Shown here: positions 44,623 to 63,213 of the stretch, piece by piece | Layout of the letters: each line of letters starts with the position of its first letter | Numbering within the stretch: the first letter of the stretch is position 1 | Virus record (IMG/VR): IMGVR_UViG_3300031993_000004 | Location: 32,001 to 96,000 of that record | Length of the DNA stretch: 64,000 bases | Source of the DNA: a virus | Taxonomy: Duplodnaviria > Caudoviricetes | Strand: one strand, 5' to 3' | The notes under the pieces: generated by a model | Databases searched by the model: none | What the model was told of the DNA's origin: nothing | Seen by the model: the letters and a program-made list of their open reading frames with translations, nothing else | Position numbers and translations under genes: made by a program

Positions 44623-45454
44623 TGCCGAATTAATGCTGACTGCTATCCGTCAGGATGGTGAACGACTCCGGCACAAAAGATTTCATCTCAAATCTTTTGA
44701 TATGCCTGACATCAAAAGACAGTTTCCTGATGCGTACGAGACAAAGATCGGATACCAAAGACTGATCGAAGAAATCGGGCGGATCGAGTCGATCCGGGAT
44801 TTCGATGAACAGCATATTGACGATTATAAGAGAATCTCTGATACGGTCGATAAGATCGTGCGGGAACTGGATTTCACGGCCATTCAGACCGGTGATCACA
44901 TCCGAAATTTTGAATTTCCGGTATCTATTACCAGCGGCCTGGATGTGGATGACGAAGAATCTACACCCAATACGCTGACTGGTGTCATGTACCGGATCCG
45001 GCAAATCACATCCTGTAATTCTAGATCGGTATTTTATGCACCAGCCACATATTGTGGAATGGTGTTTGAATTTTCAATTCAGCATAAATACACAGCACTG
45101 AACGAACAGACCATTGTCAATTCCATATGGACAAGAGAAAAATATGACATCACTGGAATCAAGTTACTTATTTCAGCGATCCCGCTTGACAAAAGCGCAT
45201 TTCTTGAAGAGTGGTTGCCTGCACTGAATCTGGAGAAGAACTTGGGCTCAAAGGGCGCAAGGGTCATTTTTGCAATTGATCCGGAACGGGGAACCCTTGA
45301 ATACCCTGATAAGAACAGGCTTATCATTCCGGCGTGGAATTACTATAACCAGTCTGTTGCTGAAGGCCTGATTGACAACGCTGTAAAACATATCAGTGAG
45401 TCGTGCCTGGATGTTTTCTTTCCGAAGCCCGCATCTGAACCCGTCACCGAATAA
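44615..45454 (+). CDS. hypothetical protein
   Basis: AAGGAGG RBS. Confidence 0.7.
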   Translation: MHDAELMLTAIRQDGERLRHKRFHLKSFDMPDIKRQFPDAYETKIGYQRLIEEIGRIESIRDFDEQHIDDYKRISDTVDKIVRELDFTAIQTGDHIRNFEFPVSITSGLDVDDEESTPNTLTGVMYRIRQITSCNSRSVFYAPATYCGMVFEFSIQHKYTALNEQTIVNSIWTREKYDITGIKLLISAIPLDKSAFLEEWLPALNLEKNLGSKGARVIFAIDPERGTLEYPDKNRLIIPAWNYYNQSVAEGLIDNAVKHISESCLDVFFPKPASEPVTE

Positions 45455-45476
45455 AGAACCCCAAGGAGGAATCCAA

Positions 45477-46616
45477 ATGCCAGCCAAATACCTCAGACCA
45501 TCAAAACCGACATATTATCTAAGCTTTGCTGAAACCGCAGCAAGACGCTCCACTTGCTTGAAACGACGATATGGTGCGGTCATCGTTAAAGATGACCGCA
45601 TCATTTCAACCGGATACAATGGAGCGCCGCGTGGTCGGATAAATTGCGTTGAGATCGGGTGTCCGCGTTTGAATGTTCCAAACAATACAGAATACTCAAC
45701 ATGCCGGTCCGTCCATGCCGAAGCAAACGCAATGTTACACGCCGAATATACTGACATGATCGGATCGACATTATATCTGTATGGGTATGATGTCGTGAAA
45801 GACGAGCGTGTTAAAGATTGCGAACCATGTCCCATGTGTAAGCGCATGATCATTAATGCGCAAATCAAAGATGTCGTTGTATATGACAGAGATCTGAATG
45901 TCAAAACCTTTCATGTGAAGGACTGGACATTACCATGCAACGACGATTCCATTCCTGAGAAAGAACCGGAACTCTCCGATCCGGCGACGACGCCGTCCGA
46001 AGATACTCTGGACGTTGTTCTCATGAATAACGTTGAATCATCTAACGATGAAACAATACCATTTCTCGCGTCATCAAAACATCTTGAAGAGCTGATTGAG
46101 AAAGATCCCCAAACACAGATAACCGACGTGGATATATTGATGCGGTGTTACACGTTGTACCGCGATTCATTACGGTTTGCAATGTCAAATACGAACATGC
46201 CATTAGCATTGACAGAACTTTGTGTCTGCTTCTATGCTGGACACGGACATGTGGGCCTTGTAAATCAGAGTGCAATATCCAACTTCATGCTTGATTATGC
46301 GGGTAAAACGTTGCCTGCATATATTGATACATGTGTGCGAAATGCATTGTACAAATGCAGTCGATTCGAATGTGTCAATAACCGGTTGAGCTTTAGTTAT
46401 AATGGTAGATGGGGCGAAATCAGAAAGACAATTGATGCAACGGCTTACAAATATTTGCTTCCGGCAATTCGCGTCAGACGTGCGTTGTTACATGCAGGCT
46501 TCCTGGACGCAAATACCGAGAATCTATTGCTGAAGCTTCAGCGATATCTGAAGGAACGAAATGCGTTCCACGAAAGCACGCCGTGGGAACCCGGCATCCA
46601 ATATCCGATTTACTGA
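45477..46616 (+). CDS. dCMP deaminase with a C-terminal extension of unknown function
   Basis: RSTC, GAVIV, TGYNG, HAEANA and PCPMC motifs. Confidence 0.9.
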   Translation: MPAKYLRPSKPTYYLSFAETAARRSTCLKRRYGAVIVKDDRIISTGYNGAPRGRINCVEIGCPRLNVPNNTEYSTCRSVHAEANAMLHAEYTDMIGSTLYLYGYDVVKDERVKDCEPCPMCKRMIINAQIKDVVVYDRDLNVKTFHVKDWTLPCNDDSIPEKEPELSDPATTPSEDTLDVVLMNNVESSNDETIPFLASSKHLEELIEKDPQTQITDVDILMRCYTLYRDSLRFAMSNTNMPLALTELCVCFYAGHGHVGLVNQSAISNFMLDYAGKTLPAYIDTCVRNALYKCSRFECVNNRLSFSYNGRWGEIRKTIDATAYKYLLPAIRVRRALLHAGFLDANTENLLLKLQRYLKERNAFHESTPWEPGIQYPIY

Positions 46617-46654
46617 TACAAATACTTGCAGTGCCCGCCATATGGCGGGCATTG

Positions 46655-48690
46655 TAATGTAATGGTACGGTATGGAAGAGTTCGGTAGGGTCTTGCTCCG
46701 TTCTGTGTGGGTGGAGTGCGCTGTAGTTCTGTTCCGTGTAGGTGAAGTGCACTGTAGTCCTGTTCGGTGCAGGTAAAGTCTGGGATGGTTCTGGTAAGTT
46801 TAGCAATGTGATTGCACGGTTAGGCAAACTGCCGCATTGTCTAGCTACGTATTGTGACTGTGGTGCTGCGGTTTCGCGATGTAACCTGTGGTATCGTATG
46901 GGCATGGTATCGTTGAATTCAGTAATGATTCGTTCGGCGATGTGATTGTGATGCGGTGTACCATACCGTCGCGTGGAGGTAGTGTGGGGCAGAGTGGTGA
47001 CGTGCATCGTTATGATATGTGAAGCAACTGTAAAGAGTCGTGGAGTATCGCTATGTCAAGGCAAGGCACAGTATTCTCTCGTCATGTCTCGTGGCGTCAA
47101 TGTAGTGTAGTATAGTGTGCCGTGGCGTAAAGGTACAGCGGGGCTTTGTCAAGTAATGTAACGGTAAAGTGGCGCGGTGTAAGGTCACATCGCGTTTTGT
47201 CACGTTGCGTTTCGGTAAAGTAATGTATTGTCTTGTATCGTTGGGGTGAGGTCCGGTAAGGTGCGTTATCGTAAGGCGGTGTGGCGTACAGTAAAGGTAC
47301 TGTAATGTCGGGCGCTGTCACGTTACGGCAAAGTGAATTCTGGTATGGTGACGTAACGTAAATGTTTCGTAATGTTTCATTTAGCAACGTAATGGCATAG
47401 TGAAGTCTGGTATGGTGCCGTGATGTAATGGCAAAGTGCTGTGAAGTTATGTATGGTAAAGGTATGGTTGCGTCCGGTAAGGCGCAGTAGTATATTGTGA
47501 CGTGAATGTAAGGTAAAGTGGGGTATGCTTATGTGAAGCAGCGACCCAGTAATTCAGTCACGGTATGGCGACGTAACGTAGAGTATCGTTACGTGGGGTT
47601 ATGGCAAAGTGTTGGTTAGCTTCGTACAGCTCAGTCATGCAACAGTGAGGTTTGGCAGGGTTGGGTAAAGTCATGTAAAGGCAGGGTGAGGTGTGGCAGA
47701 ATAACGTGTGGCAATGTCACGTAACGGTGAAGAATGGTGCAGTGTTGAGTTGTTCCGTTAAGTGATGGCACGGTGTTGATTAGCTTCGTACAGCTCAGTC
47801 GCGCAACAGTGAAGTGAAGTAGCGCACGGTGGAGCTATGTAAAGGCAAGGCGGGGTGTGGCGTTGAACTGTTGAGCTCTGTCACTGTGAGGTGAGGCGTG
47901 GTAGCGAGCGTATGGCAATGCCTCGTAAGGTATTGGTATGGTATGGCTGTGTCTCGCAGAGTGATGGTTAAGTGATGTTGTGTTGAGTGTTGTATCGTTT
48001 GGCCATGGCATGGTGTCGTATCGTATGGTCACGGTCGGTTCTGTAAAGGCAAAGTACGTTGTCGTCTGGTGGAGTCTCGTGGTGTCAATGTAGTGTAGTG
48101 CTCAGCGATGTCAGGTTACGGTAACGGTACGGTGCTGTTTGGTAGAGCTTAGTTTAGTAAAGGTACAGCATGGTTATGTACTGATTGATTGAGTAATGCG
48201 CTGTAATGGCATGGTTCGGTCCGGTCCTCTCCTGTTATGTAATGGCATGGTGGAATGTTGTGACGTAATGCCACGTAAGGTCTTGCAACGCAATTGTACA
48301 GCATTGTCTGGTCTAGTGCGGCCAAGTGCTGTCTGGTCTCGGTATGGTATATTCCAGTCACGATCTTTGCGGTTAGGTGTTGTGTTGTAAAGGTGCGGCA
48401 GGGTTGCGCGAGGTGCCGTTGCGTAATGCTTCGTGAGGTAATTGTACAACATTGTCTAGTTTTGGTATGGCGTAGAGACGTTCCGTAACGGTGATGTGAT
48501 GTGTAGTTCCGTCGGGTATAGTAAAGGTATGGTTCTGCGAGGTGTTCTGAAGTATTGTGAGGTCAGGTCTAGGTAAGGTAATACATCGTAAGATGCAGAA
48601 CTGTCTGGGGATGGTACAGCACATCAAAGTTATGTACTGCAAAGTTGTGTCTCGGCGCAGCTCAGTGACGATCCGCTTTGTGAAGTAACC
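46655..48690 (+). repeat. NGY-NN pentamer array 1, putative guide-RNA array
   Basis: 5-nt periodic GT/GC with regular +1 phase shifts; G/T-skewed and non-coding. Confidence 0.85.
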
Positions 48691-48705
48691 TGAAGTTCAG
48701 ATTTG

Positions 48706-48743
48706 AAAAAAGATGGGGCGCATCACGCCCCATCTTTTTTCTT
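48706..48743 (+). terminator. intrinsic terminator closing array 1
   Basis: AAAAAAGATGGGGCG-CATCA-CGCCCCATCTTTTTT. Confidence 0.85.
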
Positions 48744-48744
48744 G

Positions 48745-48766
48745 AATTTCATATATATATCATTAT
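48745..48766 (+). promoter_or_regulatory. putative early promoter motif
   Basis: AATTTCATATATATATCATTAT. Confidence 0.6.
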
Positions 48767-48836
48767 AGGGAATGGGATTTCAAAATCTCATTAAGCTTTA
48801 TTCCGTACGGAATCGAATCAGAAAGTGAGGAGAAAA

Positions 48837-50255
48837 ATGAGCAACCCAATCAAAAAGCGCATTGAAAAAATTGCTGACACATGCGCAATGTCAGCAGAGC
48901 ACTATCCGTTGCTGGAAAACTGGTTTCAGTGCACAGCAGAAACTGCTCGCGAGATTGAACGCTCGCAAATCAAATCTCTCGAAGAATTTGACAGCGTGGC
49001 ACTGGCATTGTCGGCACTGAGATCGGACATTCCAATCATTGACCGGTCCACTTTGAATGAAGGTATCGATGCATTACGGTCTGCATGCGCCAGATATTCG
49101 TCAGCCACCGATGAATTCTCTCCGTTCAACGCGTTAATTGCGCAGTCGTGCAATACGTTGATCGTTGTGGGTGAAGAGATCATCGGAGCACTCACCAATC
49201 TCAAAATTCTTGAGATTGCACTCGGCATCGGCACAATGGTCCCACGTGATGCTCCGGAAGAAGACGTGGCGACAACGGAACAGGAAAAAATCGAACAGAT
49301 TTGTTCCGCACCGGTACCGGCTGAAATCACCGTCACTTTACCGGCATCAGATAAGACTATCGTTCTTTCACAATGTGATGCAACTATTCTCGAACCCATC
49401 TTTGCCCAGAGAGAACAGGAACTGCAGGAGCCGATTCCGGAAGAAGACGCGGCGGCAACGGAACAGGAAAAAATCGAACAGATTTGTTCTGCACCGGCTG
49501 ACGAATGTGAGGAAAACAGTGGCTATACTGTTTTCGGAATTCCGATCGAGCAAATCGGAGTATCCCAGGAAGAAATCAAACGTGTTACAACAGATATTCC
49601 AGATCCGCCGAAGCCTAAGAAGAAACCCAATGAACCACGTAAAGTGGGAGTGCTGGATGTCCCGACTGGGTTTACCGCGCTCAAAGTTCCGGGTTTCCCG
49701 GATGACAGATTCATGTTGTCTGTAGATAATCAAATCGTTGACCGTCGGACAGGGCGGAAGATCAAAGCAACTCTCAGACACGGGGTTGAATATGTCAAGC
49801 TTTTCCATCCGAGAGATGAACATGGGGAACAACAGTTTGTCGAGTTCCCGCTCGCGGATCTGATCTCAAAATCTACATCTACAGCGGCATTGCCGCTTCC
49901 GAAACCTGCAATGACGGAGGAAAAAGACGACACATTTGTGTACGTCGATTGGTTTCCAGGAATACCTGCTCGGAAATATAAGGTATATGCCTCAGGAAAG
50001 GTATACGATACTGTACACAAAGAGTTTATACCCTATGACAGGAAGAACGAGTCTATTCGACTTACAGATTCGGATATCGAATCCCGCACGATTGGGGTTC
50101 ATGCGGTTGTCAAGGCGCTGAAACGGCAGTCACTCGTATGGCAGGCTTTCCATAAAGAATACCGGAATCAATCCAGGGTGTACATCTCTTTCAGAGATGG
50201 AAACAGACAGAATTGTGCACTCGACAATCTGTATATCGGAAGATCTGCAAAATAA
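48837..50255 (+). CDS. protein with an internal repeat and a C-terminal NUMOD4/HNH-like (degenerate) domain
   Basis: PEED.A.TEQEKIEQICSAP twice; YKVYASGKV..LVWQAF..ISFRDGNRQNCALDNL. Confidence 0.7.
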   Translation: MSNPIKKRIEKIADTCAMSAEHYPLLENWFQCTAETAREIERSQIKSLEEFDSVALALSALRSDIPIIDRSTLNEGIDALRSACARYSSATDEFSPFNALIAQSCNTLIVVGEEIIGALTNLKILEIALGIGTMVPRDAPEEDVATTEQEKIEQICSAPVPAEITVTLPASDKTIVLSQCDATILEPIFAQREQELQEPIPEEDAAATEQEKIEQICSAPADECEENSGYTVFGIPIEQIGVSQEEIKRVTTDIPDPPKPKKKPNEPRKVGVLDVPTGFTALKVPGFPDDRFMLSVDNQIVDRRTGRKIKATLRHGVEYVKLFHPRDEHGEQQFVEFPLADLISKSTSTAALPLPKPAMTEEKDDTFVYVDWFPGIPARKYKVYASGKVYDTVHKEFIPYDRKNESIRLTDSDIESRTIGVHAVVKALKRQSLVWQAFHKEYRNQSRVYISFRDGNRQNCALDNLYIGRSAK

Positions 50256-51263: not shown

Positions 51264-51305
51264 TATAATTGCCCATATGTACAACATGTATGTATGGGCA
51301 AAGAT

Positions 51306-51376
51306 GGGTTCGTAGTTTAATGGCAAAACAACGGTCTCCAAAACCGTTGATTGGGGTTCGATTCCCTGCGGACCTG
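51306..51376 (+). tRNA. tRNA-Trp(CCA)
   Basis: Cloverleaf; ACGGT-CTCCAAA-ACCGT. Confidence 0.9.
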
Positions 51377-51474
51377 TCAAAATAAAAGGGAGTTAAGTCG
51401 TGGCGGTTTGAATCTGCTTTTAAGGTTCGGAGTGTACCGCACCACGCTAGCCCAAAGTCCATAAACACTCATCT

Positions 51475-51558
51475 GCTGGTGTGGCGAAATCGGCAGACGC
51501 AGTAGACTCAAAATCTACCGGTGGCGATACCATGTGGGTTCGAGTCCCACCACCAGCA
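51475..51558 (+). tRNA. tRNA-Leu(CAA)
   Basis: GTAGA-CTCAAAA-TCTAC; long variable arm. Confidence 0.92.
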
Positions 51559-51559
51559 T

Positions 51560-51646
51560 TCATCACAGGAGATGAGAAGTTCCAGCACTTCTTCGTGGTC
51601 CCTCAATGAAACTGCGTAGTTTAAGGGTAAAACCCCCTGTGTTGAT
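51560..51646 (+). ncRNA. circularly permuted tRNA-like RNA (Y RNA/YrlA-like candidate)
   Basis: T-like arm, loop-closed acceptor stem and D arm, enclosed by a CACAGG/CCTGTG stem. Confidence 0.45.
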
Positions 51647-51706
51647 TCAAGGCGACATATCATGGTCTGGTGGTGGCAAAAGATGACACAGAAAAGGAGA
51701 AACGGT

Positions 51707-52066
51707 ATGGAACTGAAAAGACAAATGCCCGAGCAGCATGATGTTGTGACATTCTATATTAACAGCGATGAGTTTAACACCATGATGCTCAATCATACTG
51801 CAAACGAGTTTGTTGCGCAACGACTCAATGGCATTGCGATCAAAGAGAATGATCTGATTGTCATATATGTCGATCGCGGACAAACGCACAATCTGTCGGC
51901 AGAGCTGATGAAACAATTGATGAAATCCCTTGTCGATCAGCTTGGCTGCAAAGTTATATGCATGCCAGCTGTCGCACATCTCTCGGTTGAATCCAAAAAG
52001 GATTTCATTAATATGCTGAGAGAAACTATCATATATCTTGAAAAAGGCGATGACGAAAATAATTGA
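51707..52066 (+). CDS. hypothetical protein
   Basis: AAAGGAG RBS. Confidence 0.65.
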   Translation: MELKRQMPEQHDVVTFYINSDEFNTMMLNHTANEFVAQRLNGIAIKENDLIVIYVDRGQTHNLSAELMKQLMKSLVDQLGCKVICMPAVAHLSVESKKDFINMLRETIIYLEKGDDENN

Positions 52067-52204
52067 GAGCGATTGGCGATAGTGCGTGAATCGCGGTGGT
52101 ATGTTGTGTGGAACTAATTTCCAGGGGAGTTTCGATTCCAGACGAGGATCCTGGAGAAATAGAATGTCGAGGCCGTAAGATCTAGAAGCACATCATATTG
52201 TCAT

Positions 52205-52347
52205 CATTACCTCGTATGCAAGTGGTCAAAAGCAGTCTACCTTTGGTAGGTAGAGAAGACTCTCCACCCGGGATATCCGGCCGGGTATCGGGTTAAAACT
52301 CGCAATCGCGAGGGGGAGTACGCGGGTTCGAATCCCGCCGGGTAATG
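52205..52347 (+). ncRNA. tRNA-like RNA with a branched, greatly expanded variable region
   Basis: CATTACC/GGTAATG closing stem; D-like arm; GCGGG-TTCGAAT-CCCGC T arm. Confidence 0.55.
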
Positions 52348-52367
52348 TTGCTCAATTCTATATAGGC

Positions 52368-52440
52368 CGGGGTGTAGCGCAGTTGGTAGCGCGCCTGCTT
52401 TGGGAGCAGGATGCCGCAGGTTCGAATCCTGTCACTCCGA
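52368..52440 (+). tRNA. tRNA-Pro(TGG)
   Basis: CCTGC-TTTGGGA-GCAGG. Confidence 0.93.
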
Positions 52441-52448
52441 TTTCCCAT

Positions 52449-52532
52449 GCTACTGTGGCGAAATTGGCAGACGCAAGAGACTTAAAATCTCTCGGTGGAT
52501 ACATCTTGTGGGTTCAAGTCCCATCGGTAGCA
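52449..52532 (+). tRNA. tRNA-Leu(TAA)
   Basis: AGAGA-CTTAAAA-TCTCT. Confidence 0.9.
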
Positions 52533-52587
52533 TTCAAAGGCACTTACAGCAATTCTCAAATAATGATGAATGAACGATGTGCCTTGA

Positions 52588-52665
52588 GGTGAAGTAGCTC
52601 AGGTGGTAGAGCGTCGGGAGTGTAACTCCTGCAGGGATGTTAGGTTCGAGCCCTAACCTTCACCA
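52588..52665 (+). tRNA. atypical tRNA, probably Tyr(GTA)
   Basis: GGTGAAG/CTTCACC acceptor; CGGGA-GTGTAAC-TCCTG; short variable arm. Confidence 0.6.
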
Positions 52666-52782
52666 TCCACGTCCTGTCGGAACCTGTGTACGCAGGCCAA
52701 TTCCACAAATAAAAGGATATACGGCGCCAAATGACCGTGACGGTCATGTATATCCCTCTCGGCAGGCTCCGTGGTGCCATAT

Positions 52783-52860
52783 GCCAGTGTAGCTCAGTTG
52801 GTCGTTAAGAGCAGCTCCTTCATACGGAGAAGGTCGGTGGTTCGAATCCACTCATTGGCA
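52783..52860 (+). tRNA. tRNA with CAT anticodon (Met or Ile2)
   Basis: CTCC-TTCATAC-GGAG; enlarged D loop. Confidence 0.8.
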
Positions 52861-52884
52861 TTCATTTTTTCATCAATTGAGTAG

Positions 52885-53450
52885 TAAACAAAAGCCCATT
52901 CAAAGGATGGGTAAGCTTTACCAAGGAAATCGTTGCAGTGCACAAGGATAAGAGTATTGCGATATGCTGCATTCCTAGTATCGGACGAGTACGAAACCTT
53001 GGTTGTGTCATTGGCGCTATTAAGAAGCGTCTTCCCGAAAAGAGCCTCAACGTAAGATCCAGTAGAAGAATCCATAGTCTGGTGCATATCTCGGTCTGTG
53101 GATTGCGATGTAACTGGTGGGAAAAGGATGATACGGGAATCTCCTGAGTAGTGGCGAGCGAAAGGGATCCACAAGAGAGCATGGGGACACGATCCGAACA
53201 CGTGCTTGTGAGTGGTCAAAATCGCCCTGGAAACGGGCATGGGCAGTTATGAAAGATGATGAAAAGATGGCGACGGTTGTGTGCAGTCCAGACCATTTGG
53301 TTGGCGTGGGATACTAAGGAATCACCAGACTGCATATGAACCTAGATTGTTGTGTAAGCGGGAACGCACTGGCCACCTAGCGAGCCAGGTATACCGGAGG
53401 ATTCCGGCGAACATAATTGAAGTGAGACGCTCTATAATCTACACAACAAT
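52885..53450 (+). ncRNA. large structured ncRNA candidate
   Basis: About 570 nt between tRNAs with many helices, no credible ORF and a 23S rRNA-like motif. Confidence 0.5.
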
Positions 53451-53451
53451 T

Positions 53452-53527
53452 GGGGCTGGGCAGGAACACACGTGGCCAGGGTGGCGTTACGACGTTGCCT
53501 TACGGGTTCGAATCCCGTCACAGCTCT
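53452..53527 (+). ncRNA. anticodon-less tRNA-like element
   Basis: GGGGCTG/CAGCTCT acceptor with G3:U70; canonical T arm; UACG-capped stem. Confidence 0.45.
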
Positions 53528-53530
53528 TCT

Positions 53531-53603
53531 GACTCGGTAGCCAAGAGGCAAGGCAAGGGAGTGCAAATCCTAGATGCGTCGTGTTCGAATCCGACCCGAG
53601 TCT
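53531..53603 (+). tRNA. tRNA-Cys(GCA), slightly atypical
   Basis: GACTCGG/CCGAGTC acceptor; loop GTGCAAA; U73. Confidence 0.75.
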
Positions 53604-53610
53604 TTTTTTT

Positions 53611-53686
53611 GGGGTATTAGCTCAGACTGGATCAGAGCACCTCCCTTCTAAGGAGGGTGTCGTGGGTTCGAATCCTACATACCCCA
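53611..53686 (+). tRNA. tRNA-Arg(TCT)
   Basis: CCTCC-CTTCTAA-GGAGG. Confidence 0.9.
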
Positions 53687-53698
53687 TTCAACATTCCG

Positions 53699-58216: not shown

Positions 58217-58683
58217 GACTATGTGCTGGTTACGACGGGAGAACCTGTGTCCGGAATATGACCATGTTCTTGATGGCAGTTTTCTCGACGAAAATCTCCG
58301 AATACGCCATGAAGAAACTTGGTGACAAACACGACAATTTCTCGTGCCACCTCTTCGAAGAGGGTGCCGGCATTATGATCAGTGCGTCCCATGATGCGAA
58401 TGATGATCCAACGTTTTATCCCATGTATCGTGTGACTGTTAACGACGACCGTAATACTGTATACGTCGTATACGGTGATGACATCGTCACATTCCGTATT
58501 AAGACGACGGCGATTGGAACTGGAATTTCATGCTCAGATTATTCCAACATCAAAGATCCGATCGCATTGGAACATATCACGGAATTGCGTCAATTGATCC
58601 AGGATGCGATGAAGACGATCGTCGGCCCGATGGCAGCACTCGCCATAATGCCTGATGAAGGGATTGATCATGATGCATCGTAA
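58213..58683 (+). CDS. hypothetical protein
   Basis: GGAGG RBS; ATGA overlap. Confidence 0.65.
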   Translation: MRLCAGYDGRTCVRNMTMFLMAVFSTKISEYAMKKLGDKHDNFSCHLFEEGAGIMISASHDANDDPTFYPMYRVTVNDDRNTVYVVYGDDIVTFRIKTTAIGTGISCSDYSNIKDPIALEHITELRQLIQDAMKTIVGPMAALAIMPDEGIDHDAS

Positions 58684-59305
58684 GCCAATAAAGTACGAAC
58701 CCGTCAAGCCGTCTGTGTTTGACGGGTTCAAACTCGATCTGATTGTGATTGTAATCCTTATTATAATCGCAGGGGTCTGCACAATTATTACGACCCCAAG
58801 AACTAACAAAACCATGTCATCTGCTGATACAGCAGAAATCACGACCACGTGCACGACTTCAACTACCGTTATGACCACCACTACAACGGTTACGACTGTA
58901 ACAACTACGACAACCGAAATGACAACAACCACCACAACCACTTATGATCCAAAGGAACGCCTAATCGATTATGGCAACTTTACTGCCACTTATTATCATG
59001 GCAGATATACAAATCCATGTCCTGGTGGATCCGGACGGATGCTTCTGGACTGTACACCAAAAGACGATGAAATCAAAGGCAGTGTTGCTTGTCGACGGAT
59101 TCAAGAAGATTACGGATATAACGTAAACGGAAGAACCCGTGTTTATCTCGAAATGGACAGTCATCCTGAAATGGACGGCTGGTATTTCGTCGATGACGCG
59201 TGCGAGAAGCTCACAATTGTAGACTTTTATTTCATCGAATATGAGGATTGTCCATGGTGTGGTGATATACCACCATCTGTACACTTGTGGATGGAAGTCT
59301 CATAA
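58670..59305 (+). CDS. membrane-anchored protein with Thr-rich stalk and 3D/DPBB-like cell-wall domain
   Basis: TM helix; poly-Thr linker; FTATYY..SVAC..YFVDDAC..IVDFY. Confidence 0.65.
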   Translation: MMHRKPIKYEPVKPSVFDGFKLDLIVIVILIIIAGVCTIITTPRTNKTMSSADTAEITTTCTTSTTVMTTTTTVTTVTTTTTEMTTTTTTTYDPKERLIDYGNFTATYYHGRYTNPCPGGSGRMLLDCTPKDDEIKGSVACRRIQEDYGYNVNGRTRVYLEMDSHPEMDGWYFVDDACEKLTIVDFYFIEYEDCPWCGDIPPSVHLWMEVS

Positions 59306-59306
59306 C

Positions 59307-60092
59307 TGTCTAGTTTGGGTAAAGTGCTGCGAGGCGCAGTATGGTCGTGGTGTTGCACGGTCCAGTATGACATTGTTTTGTCGAGCAACTGTATAGCGGT
59401 GTATTGTCAGGTTTTGGTACTGTGGCGTTAGGTTCAGCACGGTCTCGTCTGGTACTGGTTTAGTATTGCCGAGCAGCGCAACGTATAATGCAGTGACGGT
59501 GTAGTCATGTCTGATGTGGTCGAGTCAAGTCAAGGTTAAGCTGCGTTCGGTGCAGGTGCCGTTCAGTTGTGGTGTAGTCGAGGTTTGGTAAAGTACTGTA
59601 CAGCTAAGTATCGTCAATGTGTTGTCAAGAACGGTTCCGTGATGTTAAGGTTAGGATACGTGCCGTATGATACCGTGAAGGTATGGTGCAATGAGCTCAA
59701 GTGTTGTTATGACACGTGCATTTCTGTAAAGGTTAAGCTCTGTGACGCATTGCATCTCGTGATTGTAAAGGAAAGTGTCATGCAGAACAGTGCAGCGTAG
59801 TTTCTGTGCTGTTATATCTTGTCCAGCGTGGTTAAGGTCGGGTACGGTCCCGCATTGTTCTGTTTGGTAATGTAATAGCGTAGTACAGTTAGGTTGTGTT
59901 ACGTAGAGCAACTGCATAGTGATCTGATGTAGGGTCGTGTCACGGTCGGTGATGTAATGTACAGCATAGGTATAGTTCCGTATAGTATCGTTCAGCCATG
60001 TTCAGTTGCGGTAGAGTAAAGTTGAGCGACGTGTGGTAGGGTAACGGTGGAGTGTTGTGTTGTCACGTGAAGTCAAGTAATAGTAATGGTAA
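59307..60092 (+). repeat. NGY-NN pentamer array 2, upstream of the RAMP gene
   Basis: For example ggtaa agtgc tgcga ggcgc agtat; 5-nt period with phase shifts. Confidence 0.85.
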
Positions 60093-60140
60093 ACACACTC
60101 ATCACAATTCTTTCGTAATATGAGATTTGAAGAAATTCTG

Positions 60141-60163
60141 AAATCTCATATATATATCATTAT
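60141..60163 (+). promoter_or_regulatory. putative early promoter of the RAMP gene
   Basis: AAATCTCATATATATATCATTAT. Confidence 0.6.
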
Positions 60164-60268: not shown

Positions 60269-61033
60269 ATGGCAAACAAGAAAGACGCTGCAGAAGCAGC
60301 AGCAACAACCACCACGGTCGAGAAGAAGGCACCTGCGAAAAAGAAGGCAAAATCTGATGGGCCTCAAAAGTATTACATGACGACAGTTGAGGTAACTTTC
60401 ACGAACGAGCTTCTGGCCACCAACAGCGCGGATCCGGATATCTATTCCGCGTATCTCGCGTCACTCGCAAGTGACGAAGACCGCAAGGCGGAACTCGAGC
60501 GTCTCGGCCTCGCAGAGGTTGATGAGAAGGGTATGACGGTTTTCCTCAGAAACAAGGAAAACCCGATGATCCCTCAGCTCAAGGCATATACATGGCTCGG
60601 GTTCCTCAAGGCCCGCAGCCGTGCACAGGCAAAGATCGACGGAAATCCGATCGTTGGAATGACCGCATATATCAAAGAAATCGATGACCGCATTGCGGTA
60701 TCTCCGAAATTCATTGATCTGGAGCTCCCGGAAGGAGCAGCTGTTGACACTCTGCAGCGTCCGCTTCGTGCGCAAACCATGCAGGGTGACCGTGTCGCTC
60801 TCGCAAAGTCTGAGACTGTTCCGGCTGGCACAAAGTGCCGCTTTACCTTCAGAACCGAAACTCTTGAAGGTATGAAGCTTGTTGAAGCCTGCCTCAGATA
60901 CGGCGCTATCCATGGTACAGGCCAGTGGAGGAATGCCGGTTACGGCACCTTCACATATAAGATCATCGATAGATGGTCGGAGGTCGAAGAGCCGATCGTT
61001 CTGTCTGAAGAGGACTTCCCTGTCCGCGCATAA
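60269..61033 (+). CDS. solo Cas7-group RAMP-fold RNA-binding protein (Vipr-like)
   Basis: N-terminal strand VEVTFTNELLAT; LGFLK helix; RPLRAQT..ALAKSETVPAGT; C-terminal Gly-rich loop GTGQWRNAGYGTF typical of RAMPs. Confidence 0.8.
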   Translation: MANKKDAAEAAATTTTVEKKAPAKKKAKSDGPQKYYMTTVEVTFTNELLATNSADPDIYSAYLASLASDEDRKAELERLGLAEVDEKGMTVFLRNKENPMIPQLKAYTWLGFLKARSRAQAKIDGNPIVGMTAYIKEIDDRIAVSPKFIDLELPEGAAVDTLQRPLRAQTMQGDRVALAKSETVPAGTKCRFTFRTETLEGMKLVEACLRYGAIHGTGQWRNAGYGTFTYKIIDRWSEVEEPIVLSEEDFPVRA

Positions 61034-61048
61034 TACTCACAAGATCGA

Positions 61049-61082
61049 AATTGGCGGTGTCTATATGGCACCGCCAATTTTC
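61049..61082 (+). terminator. hairpin between the RAMP gene and array 3 (terminator or processing site)
   Basis: AAATTGGCGGTGTC-TATAT-GGCACCGCCAATTT. Confidence 0.6.
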
Positions 61083-61104
61083 TATGCTACCACAATGGCT
61101 TAAC

Positions 61105-61415
61105 AGTAACGGCACAGTTTCGCGGGGTCAAGTGCAGTCCAGTCGTGGTATGGCATTGTTTACTAATGTCTCGTGGAGTTTTGGCATGGTGTGGTTTCGC
61201 TGTGTGGCGTGCTGTCAAGGCAGGGTATTGTACTATGACGCATTGTCGCGTATTGGTTACGTAATGTGAGACATGGTTATGTGTCGTAAAGGCATTGTGG
61301 AGTACGGTAATGTTGTGCTTAGTCATGTTATGGTATAGCAGCGGTTGGTGAGGTGTTGCTGTGTGGCGTTTCGGTATTGTGATGTTCCGTGTCGTGGAGC
61401 AGAGTAATTGTGACA
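61105..61415 (+). repeat. NGY-NN pentamer array 3: eight units of 36 or 41 nt
   Basis: Units start GGY at 61111, 61147, 61183, 61219, 61255, 61291, 61332 and 61373. Confidence 0.88.
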
Positions 61416-61436
61416 TCACTGTATACCATATAATAT

Positions 61437-61677: not shown

Positions 61678-61751
61678 GGGCCTCTAGCTCAGACGGTTAG
61701 AGCAGTGGACTCATAATCCATTGGTCCAGGGTTCGAGTCCCTGGGGGCCCA
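61678..61751 (+). tRNA. tRNA with CAT anticodon (likely Ile2)
   Basis: GGGCCTC acceptor; GTGGA-CTCATAA-TCCAT. Confidence 0.88.
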
Positions 61752-61794
61752 TCATCTATATAATTAGCGAAGGGGAGTACAACATAATATTTGA

Positions 61795-61880
61795 GGAGAG
61801 GTGTCCGAGTGGCTTAAGGAGCCAGTCTTGAAAACTGGTGATACGGAAACGTACCGTGGGTTCAAATCCCACTCTCTCCG
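61795..61880 (+). tRNA. tRNA-Ser(TGA)
   Basis: CCAGT-CTTGAAA-ACTGG; long variable arm; G73. Confidence 0.93.
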
Positions 61881-62376
61881 TCAAACTCTAAGACGTCTGA
61901 TTTCGCAGACGCGTGCTTCCTTTTCGGCTTTAAACCGCCTGGCATGCCGATTCATGACCAGGTATAAAAAACAGTCCGTGTGTATCGAAACCGGCCAATG
62001 ATCTTAGGCCGGATCGCGCCCGCCGCCTGCAGATCGCGGCATTGAGCTCTTATCTCCGTGAGAGTTGGCGCTACTATGTGAGAGACACGGACTACCGCTG
62101 GGGTTTACATAAATGCGGTTTACCCAGCACCAGCTTATTGCCAGAGGCAACAGCTGCCGGCTTTGCTGTTGTCTTTGCTCAGATAAGGGCCTAGTATTCA
62201 GGAATTTACAAAGCGGGTTATGCTTATTGAGGTTTCAGAGAGCGCCGCAATGGATGCGCTTGAAGATGTCGTTCATCTCTAAATCCAATGTGTTCATGTT
62301 GCGGAAGCACAACAACAACCACAACGACCACAGATGCTCGGCTTCCCCGCTAAAGAATATGAAAAACGCTCAATTT

Positions 62377-62448
62377 GCACGTGTCGTACAGTGGGCAGTA
62401 TACCAGCCTTCCAAGCTGGGGATGAGGGTTCAATTCCCTTCACGTGCT
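62377..62448 (+). tRNA. tRNA-Gly(TCC)
   Basis: CCAGC-CTTCCAA-GCTGG; U73. Confidence 0.88.
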
Positions 62449-62722
62449 TCGACGATGATGGTTTGATTTCTGACATTTACGGGTTATGTATTAACCGGTC
62501 GATGTATTGACAGATACATATGGCAGAATGATACTATCACCGTCGCACTCCGTATAAACCGTAGGGGTAGAGGCACCCACCCCTGCGGTTTTGCTCTTTA
62601 CTGTAAATTCTTGCAGTTTGTCCATTCTGCAAGGATCTGCATGAAGATACCTCCAGACGCGCAGGAGTTCTCACGCTAGCTAAGAGGACTCCTGCACTGC
62701 GTCGCCTGAGAAAGGAGAAACT

Positions 62723-62989
62723 ATGAATGATGATCTCAAAAAATGCTTGACAAGCGTTGCAGCATTGATCGCAATATTCATTCTCTGCTCTGCGCTCGGA
62801 TCATGTTGCACAGAGCAGGATATACGTGATTACACGTATATCTATGTCGATGGACAACAATACATGACATCAGATATTGTTGACATAAGTTATATCCCTC
62901 TCCGCTACGGCAATGACGCCGTGACATTCAAGCTCAAAGACGGAACTGTTATACGCACACAATCTAATGATTATACTCTCAGCAATTAA
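62723..62989 (+). CDS. small membrane protein/lipoprotein, YDYIVIDG family
   Basis: GAAAGGAG RBS; TM helix plus YTYIYVDGQQYMTSDIVDI. Confidence 0.65.
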   Translation: MNDDLKKCLTSVAALIAIFILCSALGSCCTEQDIRDYTYIYVDGQQYMTSDIVDISYIPLRYGNDAVTFKLKDGTVIRTQSNDYTLSN

Positions 62990-63001
62990 GCGTTTCCATA
63001 T

Positions 63002-63073
63002 TGGAGTATGGCCAAGCGGCAAGGCATCAGACTTTGACTCTGACACGCGCTGGTTCGAATCCAGCTACTCCAA
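63002..63073 (+). tRNA. tRNA-Gln(TTG)
   Basis: TCAGA-CTTTGAC-TCTGA; U1-A72. Confidence 0.9.
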
Positions 63074-63213
63074 CTCAATATCTTTTATCTCGGCACCAAA
63101 TGATTTTTCAACACTCGTTTTGGTGCGCAGTCTTCACTTTCTATACTGATTTCATTTGATTTCAGTTGTCCACGGTTTCGACATCTTCCGTGGACATTCT
63201 TTTTTAAGAAATA

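What the first reader, a model, noticed from the sequence alone, without database searches (positions are those of the whole stretch)
46655..48690. Orphan 2-kb pentamer array about 11.5 kb from the RAMP gene
It has the same NGY-NN grammar, strand and junction motifs as arrays 2 and 3. It lies after the dCMP deaminase gene and is closed by a strong terminator at 48706-48743. At about 36 nt per unit it would hold roughly 55 units, which would be the main guide reservoir acting in trans. Gene callers fill it with spurious Thr/His/Pro-rich antisense ORFs, so it is easily missed.
Basis: partly seen in the sequence, partly recalled or inferred. Interest (0 to 1): 0.82.

Follow-up and report, generated by a model that had tools for sequence, protein, structure and literature searches.

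The report
Distal VIPR guide-RNA array, jumbo phage
This 2-kb gene-free tract in a 278-kb phage is a real array of about 50 short guide RNAs written in five-base repeats, and it belongs to the CRISPR-like VIPR silencing system first described in 2026 preprints, so it is a large and unusually placed example of a kind that is already known.

Summary
Window 46654-48700 (+) holds about 400 N-G-Y-N-N pentamers (G 92%, Y 94%). A one-base insertion every 31-51 nt, at a GT(A)AN|GGYA junction, divides them into 51 units of 5-10 pentamers. A strong terminator closes the tract.

The genome has two more such arrays, and both flank ORF 60269-61033. That ORF folds as a Cas7/RAMP protein and is the only gene of its family in the genome.

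This matches VIPR systems, described in three 2026 bioRxiv preprints: a Vipr RAMP protein plus GGY/NN pentamer guide RNAs, including tail-less "staggered" arrays. Related phages carry same-strand arrays next to the gene in 78 of 80 loci. A 72%-identical relative has an array at the same dCMP-deaminase site, but it is only 643 bp long and shares no units.

Transcription, processing and targets are not shown: exact gapped-pattern scans and local searches found no convincing target.

The kind is known, and this scan has already logged VIPR systems in at least 59 other genomes. Particular to this locus are the array's size (the longest of about 115 arrays I surveyed), its 11.6-kb distance from vipr, and the N-G-Y repeat, which goes with an Asp-to-Gln change in the G-loop.

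The parts
45396..46616 (+). dCMP deaminase gene with a long C-terminal extension. It lies directly upstream of array 1.
   Evidence: Pfam dCMP_cyt_deam_1 at 2.4e-18 and phrog_174 at 1.2e-40. The syntenic gene in relative L006 is also followed by an array.
46626..46657 (+). GC-rich hairpin at the 5' edge of array 1. It may be a leaky terminator or a 5' structural element.
   Evidence: Inverted repeat I2, 16-nt arms, 88% complementary. An analogous hairpin precedes array 3.
46654..48700 (+). Array 1, the finding: about 400 N-G-Y-N-N pentamers in 51 units of 5-10 pentamers, separated by +1 junctions GT(A)AN|GGYA. It is read as a tail-less 'staggered' VIPR guide (vrRNA) array.
   Evidence: Rfam finds no known RNA family here, and there is no ORF longer than 177 aa.
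48705..48741 (+). Intrinsic terminator that closes array 1.
   Evidence: 16-bp perfect stem, 5-nt loop, T-run. The same arrangement follows the syntenic array of L006.
48749..48766 (+). Phage promoter-like motif TCATATATATATCATTAT, placed to serve the next gene.
   Evidence: 11 copies in the genome at up to 3 mismatches, typically after a terminator and before a gene.
48825..50255 (+). 476-aa protein with an HNH-endonuclease-like C-terminus, directly downstream of array 1. Any link to VIPR is unproven.
   Evidence: phrog_959 HNH endonuclease at 2e-5, residues 382-473. A 451-aa gene occupies the same position in L006, between the array and the zf_Tbcl gene; I did not test whether the two proteins are homologous.
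59305..60095 (+). Array 2: 19 units with the same grammar, upstream of vipr.
60146..60163 (+). The same promoter-like motif, in front of vipr.
   Evidence: Exact copy of the motif.
60269..61033 (+). vipr homologue: a 254-aa stand-alone Cas7-like RAMP with G-loop HGTGQWRNAGYGTF.
61050..61078 (+). Hairpin plus T-run after vipr, at the 5' edge of array 3.
   Evidence: Read from the sequence.
61085..61425 (+). Array 3: 8 units of 7-8 pentamers, followed by tRNA genes.

Best explanation
Array 1 is a guide-RNA (vrRNA) array of a VIPR system.

Proposed mechanism, with the basis for each step:
1. It is transcribed on the + strand as the 3' part of the dCMP-deaminase transcription unit, or from an unrecognised promoter, and transcription stops at the 48705 terminator (inferred).
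2. The single Vipr protein, encoded 11.6 kb away, binds the RNA one protomer per pentamer. It holds the invariant G and Y and exposes the two following bases, N3 and N4 (taken from the SUSP1 cryo-EM work).
3. The extra base at each GT(A)AN|GGYA junction breaks the 5-nt register. This delimits about 50 separate tail-less guides of 5-10 repeats (10-20 reading bases), with or without RNA cleavage (inferred).
4. Each filament reads double-stranded DNA with the published 'two read, one skipped' code and blocks transcription of genes of competing mobile elements or of the host (inferred; no target was found).
For: Shown here:
- Pentamer grammar with strongly conserved G and Y and free other positions, plus regular +1 junctions.
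- All three arrays share strand, grammar and junction logo, and nothing similar occurs elsewhere in the genome.
- There is one Vipr-family gene, with a confident Cas7 fold.
- There is no Cas1 in the genome and no CRISPR-like repeat-spacer array in the window.
- 78 of 80 IMG/VR loci with a homologue have a same-strand array within 700 bp. Closer jumbo-phage relatives have arrays flanking the gene.
- A 643-bp array sits at the syntenic dCMP-deaminase site of a 72%-identical relative, with the same terminator and promoter motif but no shared unit.
- Between strains with identical Vipr, the arrays are 68-84% identical while the flanks are 94-99% identical. N3 and N4 change less (10 and 9 substitutions) than the position before G (20) and Y (18).
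- N3N4 dinucleotide usage best fits sense codon positions 1-2, in 237 of 300 bootstraps for this phage's arrays and 300 of 300 for 862 guides of relatives. That is what the skip-the-wobble code predicts.
- No self-targets were found.
- The G-loop aligns to SUSP1 Vipr. W178 and R179, which hold G2 and Y3, are kept as invariant W220 and R221. D177, which reads G1, is Gln219 here, and G1 is not conserved in these repeats.

From the literature: the VIPR mechanism, the staggered arrays and the alternative YNNNG repeats.
Against: - No RNA data, so transcription and processing are not shown.
- No promoter was recognised upstream of array 1.
- Sequence homology to the published SUSP1 Vipr is limited to the G-loop (hhalign probability 15.6%).
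- There is no 3' tail or pseudoknot like the one on the characterised type II vrRNAs.
- The published staggered arrays were themselves not validated experimentally.
- The units are short: 12-20 reading bases, against 18-32 in SUSP1.
- No accessory (vap) gene was recognised.
Confidence: 0.85

Rival explanations
1. Array 1 is a decoy or sponge rather than a set of working guides. A long Vipr-binding RNA could titrate or redirect the Vipr of rival co-infecting phages, or buffer the phage's own Vipr, much as satellite 'solo vrRNAs' do.
For: Solo vrRNAs that hijack a foreign Vipr are described. Array 1 is separated from vipr, and no target was found for any unit.
Against: The phage has its own Vipr gene. 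Array 1 has exactly the grammar and junctions of the vipr-flanking arrays. Its variable dinucleotides look like codon positions 1-2, which a pure sponge would not need. The published solo vrRNAs still work as real guides, aimed at decoy sites.
Confidence: 0.07
2. The tract works at the DNA level or is a non-functional satellite: a decayed pentanucleotide microsatellite, or a protein-binding or structural DNA region such as an origin or packaging site, unrelated to the RAMP gene.
For: It is a tandem repeat with internal segmental duplications. Predicted RNA folding energies are ordinary, with z-scores from +0.6 to -2.9, like the coding flanks.
Against: A decaying microsatellite would lose all positions equally. 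Here G and Y stay at 92-94% while three positions are free. The tract also shows strong strand asymmetry, a terminator, regular +1 punctuation with a conserved junction, and co-occurrence with a RAMP gene in 78 of 80 loci.
Confidence: 0.04
3. The tract encodes protein on the minus strand, through the Thr/His/Pro-rich ORFs that gene callers report.
For: Minus-strand ORFs of 65-177 aa exist, and similar ORFs were called as genes in related contigs.
Against: There is no 3-nt periodicity, and period 5 cannot maintain a reading frame. The ORFs are short and fragmented, and the unit content is completely different in a 72%-identical relative.
Confidence: 0.02

Closest known systems
VIPR systems with 'staggered' vrRNA arrays (bioRxiv 10.64898/2026.04.26.720920, fig. 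S18 legend; alternative YNNNG repeats in its Methods)
   Same: A lone phage-encoded RAMP; same-strand arrays of pentamers with a constant G-Y core and variable bases; consecutive guides offset by one nucleotide; no ribozyme or tail between them.
   Different: Here one array of 2.05 kb and 51 units lies 11.6 kb from vipr. That is outside the 20-kb window, centred on vipr, that the authors analysed. The genome is a 278-kb jumbo phage carrying three arrays and 78 units in all. The preprint did not validate staggered arrays by RNA-seq, and I could not see its figure.
Type II VIPR of Escherichia phage SUSP1 (Vipr YP_009199429.1 + vap1 + four vrRNAs; cryo-EM in 10.64898/2026.04.26.720927)
   Same: Pentamer guide grammar, which I read directly in SUSP1. 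The G-loop motif G-x-G-[D/Q]-W-R. One protomer per repeat is the likely binding mode.
   Different: SUSP1 has GGY with both G conserved, 9-16 repeats, a 3' pseudoknot tail, and a sigma-70-like promoter that I read upstream of one vrRNA. This phage has N-G-Y, 5-10 repeats, no tail and a long polycistronic array. Asp177 is replaced by Gln. No vap was recognised. Outside the G-loop, sequence similarity is not detectable.
Solo or orphan vrRNAs of satellites and vipr-null phages (bioRxiv 10.64898/2026.10.15.759431)
   Same: Guide arrays that are not next to a vipr gene and must use Vipr supplied in trans.
   Different: Those are defined as having no Vipr on the contig or within 20 kb, are single tailed vrRNAs, and borrow a rival's protein. 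Here the cognate vipr is on the same genome, 11.6 kb away, and the array has about 50 units.
Class 1 CRISPR-Cas backbone (Cas7/Csm3 on crRNA; type III and type VII structures)
   Same: The fold of the protein (Foldseek E 8e-9 to type VII Cas7 and Csm3) and a periodic protein-RNA filament with flipped bases.
   Different: No repeat-spacer array, no Cas1 and no other cas genes. The period is 5 rather than 6, and the guide is non-contiguous.

Membership tests
VIPR (Vipr + vrRNA) | Stand-alone RAMP protein (RRM core, G-loop, thumb) outside any CRISPR-Cas locus | tested here: met
   The AF2 model has pLDDT 83.5. Its top Foldseek hits are all Cas7/Csm3, with 169 at E<=1e-3. The G-loop gives a weak match to Csm4 and Cas7. 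There is no Cas1 in the genome and no CRISPR-like repeats in the window.
VIPR (Vipr + vrRNA) | Non-coding tandem pentamer repeats with a constant GGY (or related) core and hypervariable NN | tested here: met
   N-G-Y-N-N with G 92% and Y 94%. This is the YNNNG variant mentioned in the preprint's Methods. No units are shared with a 72%-identical relative.
VIPR (Vipr + vrRNA) | Arrays on the same strand as vipr and adjacent to it | tested here: met
   Met for arrays 2 and 3 and for 78 of 80 related loci. Array 1 itself is 11.6 kb away and joins the system only through identical grammar and junctions.
VIPR (Vipr + vrRNA) | Sequence homology to published Vipr proteins | tested here: inconclusive
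   hhalign of the 64-sequence family profile against SUSP1 agp039 aligns only the G-loop (27 columns, probability 15.6%, E 0.0017). tblastn at E<=1 finds no SUSP1 hit. The preprint's PSI-BLAST hit list is not available to me.
VIPR (Vipr + vrRNA) | Accessory vap gene in the operon | tested here: not met
   Neighbouring ORFs have no Pfam or PHROG hit of a DNA-binding or nuclease kind. The preprint says loci 'typically' include vap, so this is not strictly defining. The HNH-like gene after array 1 is only a lead.
VIPR (Vipr + vrRNA) | Guides match natural DNA targets under the 1-nt skip (xNN) rule, with no self-targets | tested here: inconclusive
   No self-targets above shuffled controls. Exact-pattern scans of viral, metagenome and genome collections gave 0-2 hits each, at chance level and mostly out of frame. 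Codon-like N3N4 composition supports the rule indirectly. The authors' search at >=80% match with mismatches could not be run.
VIPR (Vipr + vrRNA) | vrRNAs are expressed and co-purify with Vipr | not testable with these tools
   Needs RNA-seq or RIP-seq.
Type II VIPR (SUSP1-like) | Each vrRNA ends in an invariant structured 3' tail (pseudoknot) and is transcribed separately | tested here: not met
   There is no repeated tail between units. Units abut at a 1-nt junction, and Rfam finds no structured family in the array. This locus is therefore not type II; it fits the staggered architecture instead.
CRISPR-Cas (class 1) | Repeat-spacer array plus adaptation and effector cas genes | tested here: not met
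   No direct repeats of CRISPR type in the window. No Cas1 in the genome. There is only one RAMP gene.

The most novel reading that the evidence does not exclude
The +1 hexamer junction GT(A)AN|GGYA may itself be the punctuation of the array. By breaking the 5-nt register, it would stop one Vipr filament and start the next. A single 2-kb transcript would then yield about 50 tail-less mini-guides of only 10-20 reading bases, without a ribozyme, a pseudoknot cap or a dedicated nuclease. This would give a jumbo phage a multi-locus arsenal of about 78 guides, the largest natural VIPR guide set I saw, partly stored far from vipr.
Probability: 0.35. Interest if true: 0.6.

Novelty: new member of a known kind. 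Interest (0 to 1): 0.4.

Why it matters
VIPR is a newly described RNA-guided DNA-silencing system, proposed as an ancestor of CRISPR. Its 'staggered' array form has not been validated experimentally.

- This locus is a clean, large natural example: 51 + 19 + 8 units served by one Vipr gene.
- Arrays can lie more than 10 kb from vipr, so surveys limited to a 20-kb window centred on the gene will undercount guides, especially in jumbo phages.
- It offers a simple testable idea for how guides are delimited, by a one-base register shift.
- It offers a protein-RNA covariation: Asp to Gln in the G-loop goes with loss of the first conserved G. This could help predict repeat grammar from Vipr sequence.
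- The antisense ORFs called in such arrays are annotation artefacts worth flagging.

Tried and rejected
**Before finding the VIPR papers**
- I considered a sponge RNA for a ring-shaped RNA-binding protein (TRAP/CsrB-like) and a DNA bending element. I dropped both once the RAMP link and the literature were in hand.

**Target search under the published xNN rule**
- This phage's 73 guides against its own genome showed no excess over shuffled guides.
- Guides of three relatives against this genome showed none.
- 266 guides of at least 8 repeats, from 114 arrays, against 1.7 Mb of related phage loci had the same mismatch distribution as shuffled guides.
- Exact IUPAC scans with guides of 9-10 repeats:

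| Collection | Hits per scan |
|---|---|
| viral contigs | 0, 0, 1, 0, 2, 1 |
| metagenome contigs | 0, 0 |
| genome contigs | 1 (a marine Aquimarina) |

- These hit counts are about what chance predicts. Two fall in the wrong codon register (L008, L093), one is ambiguous (L094), one (Aquimarina) is a marine genome whose frame I did not check, and the single in-register hit (L095) lies in a 63% GC contig.

**Third variable base (before G)**
- I tested whether it also carries codon position-3 information. In this phage it is independent of N3N4 and stop codons are not depleted, so I rejected this.

**RNA structure**
- MFE z-scores of the array are ordinary. Rfam finds only the window's tRNA genes, none of them in the arrays.

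**Guide peptides**
- I decoded the guides into degenerate peptides and recognised no motif with confidence. One unit reads I/M-S-P-P-P-Y-N/K, which recalls the methyltransferase (S/D)PPY motif. It has an extra Pro and an irregular pentamer, and the resemblance is from memory only.

**Other dead ends**
- The search for related loci with the downstream 476-aa protein found nothing in viral contigs.
- The genome search cannot reach the metagenome contigs or draw relatives for a virus record.

Full report
**What is in the sequence**

Window 46654-48700 has no ORF longer than 177 aa on either strand. Its GC skew is +0.40. Base identity at lag 5 is 0.44, against 0.25 in the flanks, and decays slowly over lags 10-20. 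There is no 3-nt signal.

An HMM parse gives about 400 pentamers N-G-Y-N-N, with G 92% and T 74% + C 20%. Successive G's are 5 nt apart 343 times and 6 nt apart 53 times. The register advances by +1 almost without exception. The tract is therefore a concatemer of 5n+1-nt units: 51 units of 5-10 pentamers, mean 7.6.

Aligning all 86 junctions of the three arrays gives G-T-(A)-A-N | G-G-Y-A. A G before the G-Y core is frequent only at the first pentamer of a unit.

A GC-rich hairpin (46626-46657) sits at the 5' edge, and a perfect 16-bp terminator (48705-48741) at the 3' edge. The terminator is followed by a motif, TCATATATATATCATTAT. This motif recurs 11 times in the genome in front of genes, including vipr.

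**Genome context**

The window is part of a 277,583-bp phage genome rated 100% complete. It carries a UvsX-like recombinase, an NAD-dependent ligase, a dCMP deaminase and 11 tRNA genes in the window.

A lag-5 scan and a strict regular-expression scan find only three arrays in the genome, all on the + strand and all in this window: 46.65-48.70 kb, 59.31-60.10 kb and 61.09-61.43 kb. Of 46 perfect runs, 43 lie in these arrays, and shuffled genomes give 3-5 runs.

**The protein**

ORF 60269-61033 (254 aa) has no Pfam or PHROG hit. It has 308 homologues in the 90% clusters and 2,157 representatives in the 50% library.

With a 64-sequence alignment, AlphaFold2 gives pLDDT 83.5 and pTM 0.78. Foldseek returns only Cas7-type RAMPs: type VII Cas7 at E 7.7e-9, then Csm3, Cmr and Cas7-11, with 169 hits at E<=1e-3. 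phmmer against PDB sequences picks up the glycine-rich loop of Csm4 and Cas7 weakly.

This is the only gene of the family in the genome. There is no Cas1 and no CRISPR-type repeat.

**Identification**

The first (10.64898/2026.04.26.720920) describes Viral Interference Programmable Repeat systems. Its main points are:
- A minimal phage-encoded RAMP (Vipr) works with vrRNAs made of YNNGG pentamers.
- GGY is constant, and the NN dinucleotides read double-stranded DNA while skipping every third target base.
- Seven types are defined.
- Alternative repeat forms occur, including YNNNG.
[quoted passage not shown] This is the one architecture not confirmed there by RNA-seq.

The second (…720927) shows one protomer per repeat. 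G1 is read by D177, G2 is stacked on W178, and Y3 is held by R179 of the G-loop.

The third (10.64898/2026.10.15.759431) describes 'solo' vrRNAs, which lie more than 20 kb from any vipr or on vipr-null elements.

I read the SUSP1 locus directly. It has GGTNN repeats followed by a tail; a sigma-70-like promoter is readable upstream of one of them.

Profile comparison of my family with SUSP1 Vipr aligns only the G-loop (probability 15.6%). The alignment is GVGDWR against GTGQWR. W and R are invariant in my family, and the Asp is a nearly invariant Gln. This parallels the repeats here, which keep G2 and Y3 but not G1. The covariation is an inference from a short alignment.

**Comparative evidence**

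- Jumbo-phage contigs with 72% and 59% identical Vipr have same-strand arrays with 5/6 spacing on both sides of the gene.
- In the 72% relative, the gap between the dCMP deaminase gene and the 451-aa gene at the position of this phage's 476-aa gene holds a 643-bp, 18-unit array. It ends in the same kind of terminator and promoter motif, so the distal site is conserved. The length differs three-fold and no unit is shared.
- Two strains with identical Vipr protein have flanks 94-99% identical but arrays only 68-84% identical. Per roughly 184 sites, substitutions number 20 at the position before G, 18 at Y (T/C), 12 at G, and only 10 and 9 at N3 and N4. The sample is small. It is consistent with N3N4 being the constrained, information-bearing bases.
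- Of 80 IMG/VR loci with a homologue (542 found), 78 have a same-strand array within 700 bp. One jumbo contig has only distal arrays, 7.5 kb upstream and 2.5 kb downstream, and one locus has none.
- The longest adjacent array in the survey is 1,750 bp, so the 2.05-kb array here is the longest of about 115 I surveyed.
- More distant gut-phage homologues keep the ...AA-N|GG... junction.

**Is it a guide set?**

Indirect support:
- N3N4 dinucleotide usage fits sense codon positions 1-2 better than the five other frame and strand models. This held in 237 of 300 bootstraps for this phage and 300 of 300 for 862 guides of relatives.
- That is what the published 'skip the wobble base' rule predicts.
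- The base before G is independent of N3N4 and does not avoid stop codons. It behaves as a free spacer.
- There are no self-targets.

Direct target identification failed:
- Local searches show no excess over shuffled guides.
- Nine exact gapped-pattern scans of the viral, metagenome and genome collections gave 0-2 hits each, about what chance predicts, and none was convincing.
- Mismatch-tolerant searches of large collections were not possible with these tools.

**Rivals**

- A sponge or decoy role cannot be excluded, but it is less economical.
- A DNA-level or junk satellite does not explain position-specific conservation, strand bias, punctuation, the terminator and the RAMP association.
- Antisense coding is incompatible with period 5.

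**Verdict**

The system is a member of a kind published in 2026, and this scan has already logged it in at least 59 other genomes.

Particular to this locus:
- the size of the array and its distal placement;
- the three-array, 78-unit arsenal in a jumbo phage;
- the tail-less +1-punctuated architecture;
- the N-G-Y repeat paired with a Gln G-loop.

Noticed in passing
window 48749-48766, 60146-60163, 53704, 55126, 34175, 43253 and five more sites in the genome: The AT-rich motif TCATATATATAT[C/T]ATTAT occurs 11 times at up to 3 mismatches, usually just after a terminator and 20-60 nt before a gene start. It is probably a phage-specific promoter. The same motif follows the syntenic array in relative L006.
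   Followed up: partly
window 48825-50255: The 476-aa protein directly after array 1 has an HNH-endonuclease-like C-terminus (phrog_959, 2e-5). A 451-aa gene sits at the same position in L006. Some published VIPR types use HNH accessory proteins, so this could be a vap-like partner or just a homing endonuclease.
   Followed up: no
window 58655-59305; L001 6598-7224: The 216-aa ORF that ends where array 2 begins has a 70%-identical homologue in the related phage, and that homologue is also immediately followed by a small pentamer array. It has no family hit and is a possible accessory gene.
   Followed up: partly
window 47588-47697 vs 47752-47861; 47054-47111 vs 48042-48099; 48274-48312 vs 48422-48460: Multi-unit blocks inside array 1 are duplicated at 74-78% identity, and the copies differ mainly at the three variable positions. 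The array seems to grow by segmental duplication followed by divergence.
   Followed up: partly
L026 1329-2515 and 13144-14271 (IMGVR_UViG_3300033463_000005, 258.5 kb): Another jumbo phage from the same metagenome has a Vipr homologue (37% identity) with no adjacent array. It has two arrays of about 1.1-1.2 kb, one 7.5 kb upstream and one 2.5 kb downstream. Distal arrays may be typical of jumbo phages.
   Followed up: partly
window 48209-48244: One guide decodes to I/M-S-P-P-P-Y-N/K, reminiscent of DNA methyltransferase motif IV, (S/D)PPY. It has an extra Pro and one irregular pentamer. The resemblance is recalled from memory and was not tested.
   Followed up: no
window 51305-53687 and 61678-63074: Two clusters of tRNA genes, 11 in all by ARAGORN and 12 by Rfam, lie on the same strand as the arrays. 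Array 3 runs straight into the second cluster, so this is an RNA-gene-rich region. The spacers between the tRNAs contain no pentamer arrays.
   Followed up: yes
window 45396-46616: In the dCMP deaminase ORF, the deaminase domain occupies residues 38-167 and is followed by about 240 residues of unknown function. The ORF length is similar in L006 (374 aa).
   Followed up: no
L003 6243-7337: The related jumbo phage (Vipr 59% identical) encodes a tubulin-family protein a few kb upstream of vipr, as nucleus-forming jumbo phages do. I did not check whether this phage has one.
   Followed up: no
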